Part shown: piece after piece, positions 1,941 through 63,131 of the stretch
Numbering within the stretch: position 1 is the first letter of the stretch
How the letters are laid out: each line of letters begins with the position of its first letter
DNA from: Eledone cirrhosa
Taxonomy: Eukaryota
Assembly: GCA_964016885.1 (NCBI GenBank)
Contig: OZ024742.1
Location: forward strand, 243,288,001-243,352,000
Reading direction: 5' to 3'
DNA: 64,000 nt
Notes under the pieces: generated by a model
What the model was told of the DNA's origin: nothing
The model's database searches: none
Seen by the model: the letters and a program-made list of their open reading frames with translations, nothing else
Program-made: the position numbers and the translations under genes

Positions 1941-2976
1941 TAAATAACTATTTATCACATATGTATGAAATTTGTAGAAATTTGTTGCTTTTTTCTACAA
2001 ATTTCTATAAATTTCATACTTGACGGTCCAACACTAGCACATATGTAAGATTTAACAATGTATAAATACAGTGTATAAATACAATGTATAATATTGGGTC
2101 GTCAAGTATGAAATTTGTAGAAATTTGTGTTTTTTCTATAATTTTCTACAAATTCCGTACTTGATGATCCCATACGCGGCAAGAATGAAGGCTGAACGTA
2201 ATTTACAGAAACATACCGACATGTATAGATCCACGAGCGACTTGATGAAAGACTTATTATACAAACGAATGCGTGATTTTATAGTGTGCAACTTTACATT
2301 CTCAAACTCTGTGTGTGTGTGTGTGTGAGTGTGTGTGCGCGTATGCGTTTGTGCGTGAGTGTGAATGCCATAGTTTCATGTGTTTGTGTGTGTCGTGATT
2401 AAGATAAACATGTTTTGTCCAGTTTAAATATTTCTGTTGAGTGAGCTCGTGTACACGCACGTGTGTGTGTGTGTGCGTGTGTGTATGTGTGTATGTGTAG
2501 GTGCGTGTGTGTGTCTGTGTGTGCGTGTATGTATGTGTGTGTGTATGTATGTGTATGTATGTGTCTGTGTGTGCGTGTATGTATGTGTGTGTGTATGTAT
2601 GTGTATATATGTGTCTGTGTGTATGTATGTGTGTGTGTCTGTGTCTGTGTCTGTGTGTGTGCGTGTGTGTGTGTGTGTGTGTGTATGTGTAGGTGCGTGT
2701 ATATGTGTGTGTGTGTGTCTGTATGTGTGTGTCTCTGTGTCTGTATGTGTGTGTGTATGTGTGTGTGTGTACGTATATCTGTAGGTATACAAATACTGCA
2801 GTAGGTTCGGGTGGCAGTCCAATATGTCGTCACACAGCTTACATTGTCCACTAATTCGAAGATAACTGTTGTTCCTTGTTCTCTCTTTCATCAACAGCCA
2901 CTAGTAAATTAAGTTTATTGACCCAACTCAGAGAATGCCGTCCCTCAACCAGTTTCTATAAATTTCAATCTCTCTC

Positions 2977-4615: not shown

Positions 4616-4742
4616 TGTGTGTGTGTGTGTGTAAGAGAGTAATTGAAAGTGGAAAAATCCACTCGTGTTTTAACAAGGTGCGTTGAAGCTCATTATGATT
4701 TCCTTCGAATGAAACAGTTCTAGTCCTGTACAAGCCATTTCC

Positions 4743-4787
<45 letters not shown>

Positions 4788-4789
<2 letters not shown>

Positions 4790-4969
4790 CGAAGGTAGTG
4801 TGGCAAGGAACCAGGTGGACCATAACGCATCAGAGTACTCTATACTTAGGGTACTAGAGTGGGTAATAGGAAAATGTTCAAGACCCCGAGGGCAGAGCTC
4901 AGGCCGTTTCGACGGTTGAGGGACGGCATTCTCTGAGTTGAGCTCTGCCGTCGGGGCCTTGAACATTTT

Positions 4970-4974
<5 letters not shown>
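4788..4974 (-). mobile_element. Fold-back Penelope-like miniature element, family B
   Basis: Lies between (TA)n tracts. Inverted arms 4866-4901/4939-4974 with a one-sided tail; homologous to 6243-6443 and 36518-36753. Confidence 0.65.
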
Positions 4975-5007
<33 letters not shown>

Positions 5008-6024: not shown

Positions 6025-6224
6025 GTTATTCCGGGTTGAATCGGGGGTAACCACGGTAAGTAAGGTACTCAATACATAGCAGAGTATAAAAGTTTTAATA
6101 TAGATGAGATTCTACAGGACTAGAACTGTTTCATTCTTAAGAAATCATGAGGAATCCCGATTCCTGATGATTTCTTAAGAATGAAACAGTCCTAGTCCTG
6201 AAGAATCTCATTTATATTAAAACT
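6023..6224 (-). mobile_element. Fold-back PLE-like element, family A, with hammerhead-like core
   Basis: Arms 6091-6156/6159-6224. Core CTGATGA-TTTCTTAAGAAT-GAAAC...GTC at 6164-6197. Homologous to 25853-26013 and 4690-4745. Confidence 0.65.
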
Positions 6225-6242
6225 ATATATATATATATATAT

Positions 6243-6443
6243 ATAGGAACGAGTAGGACCCCGACGGCTGAGCTCAAGCCGTTTCGACGGCTCATTCTGG
6301 ATTTAGTCCAGAATTAGCCGTCGAAACGGCTTGAGCTCAGCCGTCGGGGTTTTACTCGTTCCTATTACCCACTCTACTACTCTAAGTATTGAGTACTTTG
6401 GTGCGTTATGGTCCATCTGGTTCCTTACCACATTTCCTTCGTT
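6243..6443 (+). mobile_element. Fold-back PLE-like element, family B
   Basis: Arms 6243-6301/6307-6365, then a tail containing GTATTGAGTACT; flanked by (TA)n. Confidence 0.65.
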
Positions 6444-7695
6444 ATATATACACATATATATATATATATATATATATATTCATTTTATTAAGGCTAAATA
6501 GTGAGTCTTGTTACTCTGGTGTTAAAATACCTCTGCTTAAAATACCGTTTGTGAGGCTTATATATGTTATTATATATAAACATATTGTATATGCTTCTAT
6601 ATATATATATACATCTTTCCTTCGCTTTTTCTCTCTTTCTCTTTATATATATATAGAGAGAGAGTGTGTGTGTGAGAGAGAGAGTGGGGCGTAGAAAGAT
6701 AGATACAGAGAGGGGGGGGGCTATTATGTGCACTAGAGCATATACGCGTGTGTATGAACGTGTGAAAGAATGTTCATGAAATTTTGATTGCAATGGTAGA
6801 TGTCTATTGTAAGAGTGTTCATTAAAAAAAATTGAGACTTACTCCATGTATGAGTAATAGAATATGTTAGTGTGTGAATGAATAAATGAATGAATAACGA
6901 ATAAATTCCGTTCTACCATAGATCTGCAACCATTCAAAACAAAGGTTAAGGGTATTAACCCCAGGCAATTACTTATCCCTATCCATCATCCGACATAGAA
7001 ACGTTAAGTTACTTTTGGGCCACCTAACTGCTGTTTTCAATGATTTATTTTTGTTGTGTTTGGGCTTTTATGTTGATGTTTTGGGTTCTTTTTGATGTTT
7101 TTGTGGGGGGGGGGGGGGGCTACACCCCCCAACCGCCTCAACGGACTGGTGCTTAGCTCCAGTTTCCTAACGTTAGTCAGATGAGAAAATAAATCTTCTT
7201 CTGGAGAGTTCGTCGGTCTATTTCATGCTTCATTTTCAGTCTCTGGTGATTCGGTAACTGCTACAATGTAACATTATATGCGCTAATCTCTGAAAATTTG
7301 AATATTAATTATATATATATACGATGATAATCTACTATGATAAATAGACTCAACTAAGTAAGCTATTTTGTTTCGACTGCACATCATTATAGGGAAACTG
7401 TCGTTTCATGTAAGAGCAACGAATAGAAATGTATGTGTTTATCAGTCCTCAAATAGTGATGCATGCATGGAGCTGATTATATTTACTAAATAGGTGTGTA
7501 ACCATCCTTGTATGCCAATGTGTATGTGGATGTATGCATGTGTGTATATCTAAGTATATTTGTGTATGTATGTATGTATGTATGTATGTATGTATGTATG
7601 TATGTATGTATGTATGTATGTATGTATTATGTATGTATGTATGTATGTATGTATGTATGTATTATGTATGTATGTATGTATGTATGTATGTATAA

Positions 7696-16182: not shown

Positions 16183-16665
<483 letters not shown>

Positions 16666-36434: not shown

Positions 36435-36517
<83 letters not shown>

Positions 36518-36522
<5 letters not shown>

Positions 36523-36753
36523 AGAAAGTATGACCCCGACGGCAGAGCTCAAGCCGTTTCGACGGCTATTTCTGGATTAAAATCAGAGAGATCAGGTTAT
36601 TGGAAATCAATATGGATGTCATGAAATAGCCGTCGAAACGGCTTGAGCTCTGCCGTCGGGGTCATACTTTCTCCTATTACCCACTCTACTACCCTAAGTA
36701 TTGAGTACTCTGGTGCGTTATAGTCCATCCGGTTCTTTACCACAACTCCGTTA
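36518..36753 (+). mobile_element. Fold-back PLE-like element, family B, with captured loop
   Basis: Arms 36518-36572/36623-36677 and tail to 36753; flanked by (TA)n. Confidence 0.7.
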
Positions 36754-36776
36754 TATATATATATATATAAATATAT

Positions 36777-36848
36777 GATGTGTTGGTGTAAATGGTAGCA
36801 CAGTGGTCTGGATAACCAAAGATGTAGGTTCGACTCCCATGTACGTCA
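36777..36848 (+). pseudogene. tRNA-like sequence (pseudo-tRNA or SINE head)
   Basis: 72 nt. D-arm TGGTGTAAATGGTAGCAC, anticodon arm TGGT-CTGGATA-ACCA, T-arm GGTTCGACTCC. The acceptor stem needs three G-U pairs. Confidence 0.55.
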
Positions 36849-37200: not shown

Positions 37201-37707
37201 TTATATAAATCCATGTAACAGACAATCATACTTGGCAGACTTAAGCACACGTACGTACACCCACAAACATAAACACAAATATGTATATGTATATATGTAT
37301 GTGTGTATAAATACAAGCATGCACGCATGCTTTCACCCGATACTCAACTATTATGAAACTTGTTTCTCTGAGGTTGTAAACACCAGTTTTAATTGGTTCC
37401 GTTGTATCACATGACATCCATATTGATTTCCAATAACCTGATCTCTCTGTTTTTAGCTCTTCCTTTTCTCGGTTTCCTCTCAACAAAGACAAAGATATGT
37501 TGGTACAGACAACTTATTTACTTTATTTTTCTTACTACATATATAATAATGAAAATGTGAAGACTAAAATCCGAAGGGGACTCGATAACGATAGTATATA
37601 TATATAAATATATATTCCAGAAGATCCCGTTATGGCTGAAAGCAGCGATTCTTTGCTTAAACTTTAATCTGTTATTTTAATAAATAAATATATATATATA
37701 TATATGT

Positions 37708-38353
<646 letters not shown>

Positions 38354-54709: not shown

Positions 54710-54925
54710 GTAGAACACTGGAAGGTAATATCCGTAGTGGTAGAGCACTCAGTCCATGGGACGAGTTAGGTACAAGTGGTTACACAACAGTTAGTTCACC
54801 ATACCGAGAACAATTGTTTCACCTTAGCGGATCCTCAGCTTGTATAACCATGTCCATTACGAGCTGAGGATCCGCTAAGGTGAAACAATTGTTCTCGGTA
54901 TGATGAACTAACTGTTGTGTAACCA

Positions 54926-54928
<3 letters not shown>
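54707..54928 (-). mobile_element. Fold-back PLE-like element carrying a hammerhead on each strand
   Basis: Arms 54774-54844/54858-54928 and tail 54707-54773; flanked by (TA)n. Confidence 0.75.
54858..54900 (+). ncRNA. Minimal type I hammerhead ribozyme motif
   Basis: TACGAG-CTGAGGA-TCCGCTAAGGT-GAAAC-AATT-GTT-CTCGGTA. Mirror copy on the minus strand at 54802-54844. Confidence 0.75.
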
Positions 54929-54988
<60 letters not shown>

Positions 54989-62694: not shown

Positions 62695-62698
<4 letters not shown>

Positions 62699-63131
62699 AA
62701 CGTTAGAATATGTGTAATAAGGCCAAGACAATGCAGATATGGACATAGAAAAAAGAATGCAATAGTGAAAGATATTGATGAGAATTCGTCTTTCACCTTG
62801 AATTTATTTAAATGTCCTTAATTTTCGAGATAATATCTCTTCTTCGGAGGGAAGTAAAAGTCTCAGACCAGCGTCTAAATTTCCAATTGGAAATTTCATT
62901 GGAAATTTAGACGCTGGTCTGAGACTTTTACTTCCCTCCGAAGAAGAGATATTATCTCGAAAATTAAGGACATTTAAATAAATTCAAGGTGAAAGACGAA
63001 TTCTCATCAATATCTTTCACTATTGCATTCTTTTTTCTATGTCCATATCTGCATTGTCTTGGCCTTATTACACATATTCTAACGTTTATACCTCATTACA
63101 CAATGCTTCAAGTGAACTATAACCTCCTCCA
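62695..63131 (+). mobile_element. Long perfect fold-back element with tail, PLE-like
   Basis: 193-bp arms 62695-62887/62898-63090. Hammerhead-like CCGAAGA-A-GAGAT-ATT-ATCTC-GAAA-ATTA at 62938-62966, then AATAAA. Confidence 0.7.

What the first reader, a model, noticed from the sequence alone, without database searches (positions are those of the whole stretch)
36578..36623. Second independent local-sequence capture in the same family
Seen: the 46-bp spacer 36578-36623 matches the reverse complement of 37410-37455 (45/46), about 0.8 kb downstream. Two of the three family-B copies in this window therefore carry locus-specific spacers between constant inverted arms. Inference: this is a reproducible property of the insertion mechanism. 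Each insertion records nearby sequence, and if transcribed would give a hairpin RNA displaying a locus-matched loop. Any regulatory role is speculative.
Basis: partly seen in the sequence, partly recalled or inferred. Interest (0 to 1): 0.8.

Follow-up and report, generated by a model that had tools for sequence, protein, structure and literature searches.

The report
Penelope retrotransposon junction copies nearby DNA
The hairpin is two short, head-to-head pieces of a very abundant Penelope-like retrotransposon, and its loop is a 46-base copy of DNA lying 0.8 kb away; such copies occur in only about 1 in 100-200 hairpins and are likely repair scars left when the insertion was sealed, not guides.

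Summary
Observation confirmed: 36578-36623 matches the reverse complement of 37410-37455 at 45/46, and that sequence occurs only twice in the 3.0 Gb genome. 'Family B' is not a fixed-arm cassette. It is the 5'-truncated end (pLTR plus tail) of a Hydra-clade Penelope-like retrotransposon, inserted head-to-head in (TA)n, with about 13,500 hairpins genome-wide. The claim that each insertion records nearby sequence is wrong: about 90% of hairpins have a short direct join, and 0 of 83 junctions chosen by position held a local capture. But local capture is real and repeatable in the rare long spacers: 30 of 72 picked spacers map within 5 kb of their own element and better than to 139 other loci. Sources lie on both sides, in both orientations, mostly within 1 kb (median about 0.7 kb). 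Best reading: both ends of a cut are reverse-transcribed from the element's two start sites, and the two cDNA ends are joined by polymerase-theta-like repair that sometimes copies nearby DNA (inferred). No regulatory role is shown. New variant of known kinds; useful as a large natural record of how Penelope inverted repeats form.

The parts
36447..36520 (.). (TA)n target microsatellite, left flank
36518..36581 (-). Inverted 5'-truncated pLTR piece without tail (perfect arm 36518-36572; element-like letters continue to about 36581)
36578..36623 (-). Templated insertion (spacer), inverted copy of 37410-37455, 45/46; 4-nt microhomology at the left join, 1 nt at the right
36623..36677 (+). Sense 5'-truncated pLTR piece: 3' half of a hammerhead-like fold (stem II 3' strand, GAAAC, stem III, GUC, stem I 3' strand)
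36678..36752 (+). About 75-80 nt one-sided Penelope 'tail', followed by (TA)n to about 36769
37410..37455 (+). Single-copy source of the spacer, about 660 bp beyond the tail end; no element arms beside it
4790..4975 (-). Second family copy (tail on the left) with a 27-nt capture at 4914-4940
2924..2950 (+). Source of the 4914-4940 capture (inverted, 27/27)
6243..6445 (+). Third family copy, ordinary direct head-to-head join, tail on the right

Best explanation
The hairpin is two head-to-head, 5'-truncated ends of a Hydra-clade Penelope-like retrotransposon in a (TA)n tract, and the spacer is a copy of nearby DNA that was likely added by end-joining repair when the two cDNA ends were sealed. 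Shown: element identity, one arm with the tail and one without, both arms stopping at the same hot spot, variable joins, rare local copies from either side in either orientation. Inferred: the GIY-YIG nuclease cuts both strands of (TA)n; each 3' end primes reverse transcription, one at the tail end and one at the internal pre-tail start site; both cDNAs stop at the base of the inner stem-loop of the hammerhead-like region; the two single-stranded cDNA ends are joined by polymerase-theta-like synthesis. Usually this uses 0-7 nt of microhomology or short copies of the arms themselves. In about 0.5-1% of cases an end anneals to exposed (resected or invaded) flank DNA within about 1 kb, copies 20-110 nt and returns. 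The spacer is a scar with no predicted function.
For: Identity: long copies of the arm run 5' into a 710-aa ORF (P0001) with RWR, DKT, FDIESYY, YRDD, CxCx5C, GIY-YIG-like, CxxC and CxH motifs, the Hydra features in PMC8557442 section 11. Inverted 5'-truncated copy, one-sided tail and (TA)n target are the textbook PLE pattern. A purified PLE protein cuts and extends both strands and starts at two RNA sites that bound the tail (PMC11167929); here 80 of 83 junctions have the tail on exactly one side (partly built in for loci from the list). Joins are heterogeneous, with microhomology, poly-A/T and iterated arm copies. Captures: 30 of 72 examined picked spacers beat all 139 other 10-kb loci; 18 of these have no other locus scoring 20 or more. 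All four side/orientation classes occur (non-tail direct 11, non-tail inverted 7, tail direct 5, tail inverted 4, 1 side unknown), as two nascent ends and two flanks would give. 20 of 28 unambiguous sources lie within 1 kb; uniform is rejected (log-likelihood -81.7 vs -62.3 for an exponential of 0.9 kb). Arm end positions match ordinary copies. Multi-piece and microhomology-bounded inserts (L204, L211, L216, L254) match described POLQ templated insertions (PMC7454005).
Against: No enzyme was tested; polymerase theta is inferred from the scar pattern. My first prediction (sources on the tail side and inverted) failed. Many capture joins show no microhomology but extra filler (38 of 62 ends have negative overlap). 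24 of 51 spacers with 18 or more foreign bases had no called local source; two were also sought out to 15 kb without a hit. Reported L1 templated insertions come typically from within 15 bp of the site, much closer than here. Pfam did not recognise the RT and gave GIY-YIG only at E 0.069 on a sister copy. No empty allele was seen, and no read spanning this spacer was listed.
Confidence: 0.62

Rival explanations
1. The element's own reverse transcriptase makes the spacer: on reaching the end of its template it jumps to nearby single-stranded DNA or a nascent transcript, or recopies the last 10-15 nt of its template in a telomerase-like way, before the two cDNAs are joined.
For: Sharp shared stop point in both arms; many spacers are tandem repeats of the last template segment or poly-A/T; PLE RTs are sister to telomerase; template jumping by R2 RT is in print (search listing only).
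Against: Both orientations from both sides and multi-piece inserts fit repair synthesis equally well; no strand rule was seen.
Confidence: 0.2
2. Capture happened after insertion: the perfect palindrome extruded as a cruciform, was cut at the loop and repaired with a templated insertion.
For: Arms are perfect inverted repeats (55/55 here); break repair gives such insertions.
Against: Arms of capture copies are not eroded relative to ordinary copies (median 14 vs 14, p=0.74; the search patterns partly fixed the arm length); spacer-source divergence (30/1432) is of the same low order as arm-arm divergence (72/1488).
Confidence: 0.08
3. The hairpin arises from one priming event plus fold-back or self-priming on an antisense template (the model in PMC3846280), with the spacer added during the fold-back.
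For: Palindromes at inverted junctions were read this way; many joins here are self-templated.
Against: A single strand folding back predicts inverted sources on one side; 17 of 28 are direct and both sides are used. The tail-less arm begins at the known second start site.
Confidence: 0.06
4. One reading: a programmed system in which each insertion stores a locus-matched loop for a regulatory hairpin RNA.
For: The copy would fold into a 55-bp stem, z = -19; spacers are locus-specific.
Against: About 99% of hairpins have no local spacer; length (20-110 nt), side and orientation are not fixed; the captured part lies in the loop, not the stem.
Confidence: 0.02
5. Assembly or sequencing artefact (chimeric hairpin reads).
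For: No listed contig or read spanned this spacer.
Against: Spacers differ from their sources by point changes (30/1432; 1/46 here); 30 independent loci; head-to-head joins of the family are seen in contigs of public runs (table 5).
Confidence: 0.02

Closest known systems
Hydra-clade Penelope-like elements (Craig et al. 2021, PMC8557442)
   Same: C-terminal GIY-YIG-like domain, RW[KR], DKT, CxCx5C linker, CxxC and CxH, no CCHH, (TA)n target, 5' truncation, inverted 5' copy, one-sided tail.
   Different: Very high copy number here (34,606 exact arm 30-mer hits); tail about 80 nt rather than 30-40; hammerhead core is not canonical CUGANGA; local captures at the inverted junction are not mentioned in the passages read.
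Adineta vaga Penelope elements (Arkhipova et al. 2013, PMC3846280)
   Same: Inverted pLTR palindromes; host DNA captured as spacers (0.9-1.5 kb in Pen1_Av; unrelated sequence between solo pLTRs).
   Different: Here inserts are 20-110 nt, sit at the head-to-head join and are mapped to a source within a few kb; that paper's passages give no local source and propose antisense self-priming.
L1 twin priming and L1 templated insertions (10.1101/2024.08.27.596794)
   Same: Both DNA ends prime cDNA; rare chimeric insertions (22 cases among about 3,600) copy nearby genomic DNA, under 250 bp.
   Different: L1 templates lie typically within 15 bp of the site; here median about 0.7 kb, up to 4.6 kb. Here both cDNAs cover the same RNA segment, giving a palindrome rather than a 5' inversion.
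Polymerase theta-mediated end joining with templated insertions (PMC7454005)
   Same: Snap-back, direct-repeat, nearby and distant inserts, often bounded by microhomology.
   Different: The joined ends would be two retrotransposon cDNAs; inserts are longer than the 2-35 nt quoted there; the enzyme was not tested.

Membership tests
Penelope-like elements | Single ORF with RT and GIY-YIG endonuclease linked to the repeat end | tested here: met
   L043 ORF P0001 lies upstream of the family-B end; RT motifs and IY...YIG by motif search. Pfam gave no hit on P0001 and only a weak GIY-YIG hit on the L032 copy, so the call rests on motifs.
Penelope-like elements | 5'-truncated copies with an adjacent inverted copy | tested here: met
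   About 13,500 head-to-head hairpins; arms of variable length
Penelope-like elements | Tail on one end only | tested here: met
   80 of 83 junctions; about 80 nt, longer than the 30-40 nt in print
Hydra clade | RWK motif, DKT, CxCx5C linker, CxxC and CxH around the conserved E and N, no CCHH | tested here: met
   RWR 27, DKT 109, CNCPDRSIC 564, CNLC 662, CKH 690; no CX2-5CxxC
Hydra clade | (TA)n insertion | tested here: met
Hydra clade | Canonical hammerhead ribozyme in the pLTR | tested here: inconclusive
   Type I three-way fold with GAAAC and GUC, but core positions 3/8 read U/A in 13 and C/A in 9 of 24 matches, never C/G; no hammerhead among the 150 of 171 Rfam rows shown for the window; activity untested
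Hydra clade | RT phylogeny groups with Hydra | not tested
   No reference Hydra proteins were fetched
MITE or other DNA transposon with terminal inverted repeats | Fixed TIRs at both element ends around a family-wide internal sequence | tested here: not met
   Element extends past one arm as a tail; arms are truncated pieces of a retroelement; inner sequence varies per copy
TMEJ templated insertion | Dependence on polymerase theta | not testable with these tools
   Pattern only
Programmed spacer-acquisition system | Most units carry a spacer of set length and polarity | tested here: not met
   0 of 83 position-chosen junctions; 20-110 nt; both orientations

The most novel reading that the evidence does not exclude
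Penelope inverted repeats are made by twin priming from the element's two RT start sites, and the telomerase-related RT itself finishes the join by repeat addition and by jumping onto DNA or RNA a few hundred bases away. The roughly 100 captures in this genome are then a fossil map of what a germline insertion complex can touch, with a near-empty zone under about 200 bp that reflects DNA looping (1 of 27 sources once a microsatellite case is dropped, p=0.03; 2 of 28 with it, p=0.10).
Probability: 0.2. Interest if true: 0.7.

Novelty: new variant of a known kind. Interest (0 to 1): 0.42.

Why it matters
How Penelope-like elements form their inverted repeats is described as unresolved (PMC8557442, PMC11167929). 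This family offers about 13,500 natural head-to-head junctions in one genome, with a shared stop point, a one-sided tail and about 100 mappable local captures. That makes twin priming versus self-priming, and host repair versus RT jumping, directly testable, and gives a natural read-out of template reach (about 1 kb) at germline breaks. It is not a new guide or regulatory system.

Tried and rejected
Rfam scan of the window: no hammerhead among the 150 of 171 rows shown; miRNA hits are microsatellite noise. Pfam on three ORF pieces: no significant RT or endonuclease hit. MITE/Tc1 reading (TA flanks, inverted arms): rejected because of the tail and the link to a retroelement ORF. Prediction of tail-side inverted sources: failed (side 18 vs 9, p=0.12; orientation 17 vs 11, p=0.34). 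Looping minimum in distances: exponential, log-normal and monotone power fits are about equal (-62.3, -62.6, -63.3) and a polymer-looping form fits worse (-66.7) with all 28 points; kept only as a lead. L221 and L222 spacers: no source out to 15 kb. Reads: no RNA holder listed; no listed contig or read covered 36584-36619 in four runs from at most two samples and none spanned the locus; the tool says holes prove nothing, so the artefact and polymorphism questions stay open by reads. The 38070-38132 inner part of the neighbouring hairpin is family sequence, not a capture. Earlier-findings look-ups returned nothing. The 4.9-kb window copy was not scored in the control because the script masked it; it rests.

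Full report
Observation. The 46-mer at 36578-36623 equals the reverse complement of 37410-37455 at 45 of 46 positions and the match ends sharply on both sides (E 7.6e-15). A 32-mer from it, with one mismatch allowed, occurs exactly twice in the 3.0 Gb genome: spacer and source. The arms 36518-36572 and 36623-36677 are a perfect 55-bp inverted repeat. The second window capture (4914-4940 versus 2924-2950, 27/27) is real too; the third copy (6243-6365) has a direct join.

What family B is. The element continues past the right arm as a tail of about 80 nt that ends in (TA)n, and the left arm starts directly at (TA)n. An arm 30-mer has 34,606 exact hits genome-wide. Long copies run 5' through a UTR into an ORF. 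The 710-aa ORF of L043 has RWR, DKT, FDIESYY, MGATDS, YRDD, WFNPP, CxCx5C, IY..YIG, CxxC and CxH and no CX2-5CxxC. These are the features given for the Hydra clade of Penelope-like elements (PLEs) in PMC8557442 section 11 (read whole). Pfam did not recognise the protein and no tree was built, so the clade call rests on motifs. 5' truncation, an adjacent inverted copy, a one-sided tail and (TA)n targets are the usual PLE pattern (passages). The arm is the 3' half of a type I hammerhead-like fold; core positions 3 and 8 read U/A in 13 and C/A in 9 of 24 matches (one match is a chimeric capture; some are twin copies), never C/G. That U3-A8 is a natural compensating pair is recalled, not from a call. 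The host is an unnamed animal; the repeat landscape reminds me of octopods (recalled, untested).

How common is capture. With perfect 16-nt inner arms, hairpin counts by gap are: 5-35, 12,265; 36-66, 966; 54-84, 343; 85-115, 88; 116-146, 76; about 13,500 without overlap. The window copy has a gap of 58. Of 109 distinct junctions first examined, 83 came from loci chosen by position in listings; 5 of the 83 had 15 or more unmasked bases, all element- or self-derived on inspection, so 0 of 83 held a local capture. Most long gaps are longer arms, poly-A/T, or iterated copies of the arm end (listings). Scaling the called captures among the first 50 listed per bin gives about 76 of 13,500, or 0.6%, a lower bound because the 36-53 bin and sources beyond 5 kb are left out. 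At 1%, two of three in a window has a chance of 3e-4, and about one such window is expected genome-wide. The window is the lucky one.

Is capture local. I picked 76 hairpins by eye from the listings for foreign-looking or odd spacers and fetched 10 kb around each. Four gave no pattern or no foreign part; 72 were scored against their own flanks and against 139 other 10-kb loci. 30 of 72 have a local match scoring 20 or more that no other locus reaches; 18 of these have no other locus at 20; among the 51 with 18 or more foreign bases, 27 were called and 24 were not. The uncalled include iterated short units, other-repeat pieces and about nine unexplained spacers; two of these had no source out to 15 kb. 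Dropping two ambiguous cases and the window copy leaves 28: median 704 bp from the element edge, 20 within 1 kb, maximum 4,558. Uniform placement is rejected; an exponential of 0.9 kb fits as well as any. Side and orientation are mixed: non-tail direct 11, non-tail inverted 7, tail direct 5, tail inverted 4, one unknown. My prior prediction of tail-side, inverted sources failed. Sources under 200 bp are few (2 of 28, p=0.10; 1 of 27 without a microsatellite case, p=0.03), and the nearest flank is often unmappable TA repeat, so this is only a lead.

Timing. Arms in capture copies end at the same point as in ordinary copies (median 14 nt past the anchor; 62 vs 134 arms; p=0.74; the patterns fixed part of the arm length). 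Spacer-source mismatches are 30 of 1,432 and arm-arm mismatches 72 of 1,488 (the first is biased low by trimming). Both fit capture at insertion. Joins show 1-6 nt microhomology at some ends (L254: 4 and 4; window copy: 4 and 1) and filler at 38 of 62 ends; some inserts have two pieces from nearby spots (L204, L211, L216).

Mechanism. A purified PLE protein cuts and extends both target strands and starts at two RNA sites that bound the tail (PMC11167929, parts 1-2 of 4 read). Here 80 of 83 junctions carry the tail on exactly one side (partly by selection for the list). I infer that both break ends are primed, one at each start site, that both cDNAs stop at the base of the inner stem-loop, and that the two ends are joined by polymerase-theta-like repair, which now and then copies exposed flank DNA. 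Two nascent ends and two flanks give all four side/orientation classes, as seen. Snap-back, direct-repeat, nearby and distant inserts are POLQ hallmarks (PMC7454005, passages). L1 cDNA intermediates joining each other with little homology is in print (PMC13526784, passages), and insertion donors needing contact with the break is reported (10.1101/2022.09.30.509517, abstract). The main rival is that the PLE RT itself jumps or repeats; sequence alone cannot separate them. Later cruciform repair, single-strand fold-back, a programmed guide system and artefact are less likely.

Reads. Contigs of public runs show head-to-head joins of this family, but none listed covered this spacer; the tool states that holes prove nothing. 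No RNA holder was listed. Expression and polymorphism are untested.

Known versus new. Inverted pLTR palindromes and host DNA captured between pLTRs are described in Adineta vaga (PMC3846280, passages). Rare L1 templated insertions are described, typically from within 15 bp (10.1101/2024.08.27.596794, passages; its Supplementary Fig. 4d was not seen and may show a longer tail). Seven searches listed no paper on short captures from 0.2-5 kb away at PLE head-to-head joins; the library lacks most subscription papers. Passages of PMC13282606 and 10.64898/2026.07.22.740005 added nothing on this. Verdict: a real observation, an overstated rule, a known element class and a known kind of repair scar, in a new setting with unusual reach and a sample size that makes the PLE inverted-repeat question testable. 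Interest 0.42.

Noticed in passing
window 36482-36484: A lone TCC inside the left (TA)n tract; it equals the last bases before the pre-tail start site, so it may be an ultra-short insertion of the same family.
   Followed up: no
window 36777-36848: tRNA-like match (Rfam 41.6 bits, above the gathering score) with very high depth in public contigs; probably the head of a tRNA-derived SINE.
   Followed up: partly
window 6091-6224, 4695-4745, 54771-54931: Other palindromes beside (TA)n with canonical hammerhead cores (CTGANGA..GAAAC), likely further PLE families with the same head-to-head structure.
   Followed up: partly
window 37930-38290, 62695-63090, 16320-16550: More one-sided-tail hairpins in (TA)n; 62695-63090 has 193-bp perfect arms around 10 nt. 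The inner part of the 38-kb one recurs in many loci, so it is family sequence, not a capture.
   Followed up: partly
G000 hairpins (e.g. L154, L164, L174): Many spacers are 2-5 tandem copies of the last 8-15 nt of the arm, like telomerase-style repeat addition or iterative end-joining synthesis.
   Followed up: no
L043, L032, L040 pLTR: Hammerhead-like core has U3/A8 or C3/A8 rather than C3/G8 in a family with tens of thousands of copies.
   Followed up: partly
L213, L267, L268: Three unlinked hairpins hold related non-local spacer sequence, probably from a composite element or another repeat.
   Followed up: no
L221, L222, L236, L242, L244, L251, L252, L255: Long foreign spacers with no source within 5 kb (15 kb for L221, L222); possible captures from distant or other-chromosome contacts.
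   Followed up: partly
L031:4500-5100: Three tandem copies of a 60-nt truncated element plus flanking microsatellite, a local tandem amplification.
   Followed up: no
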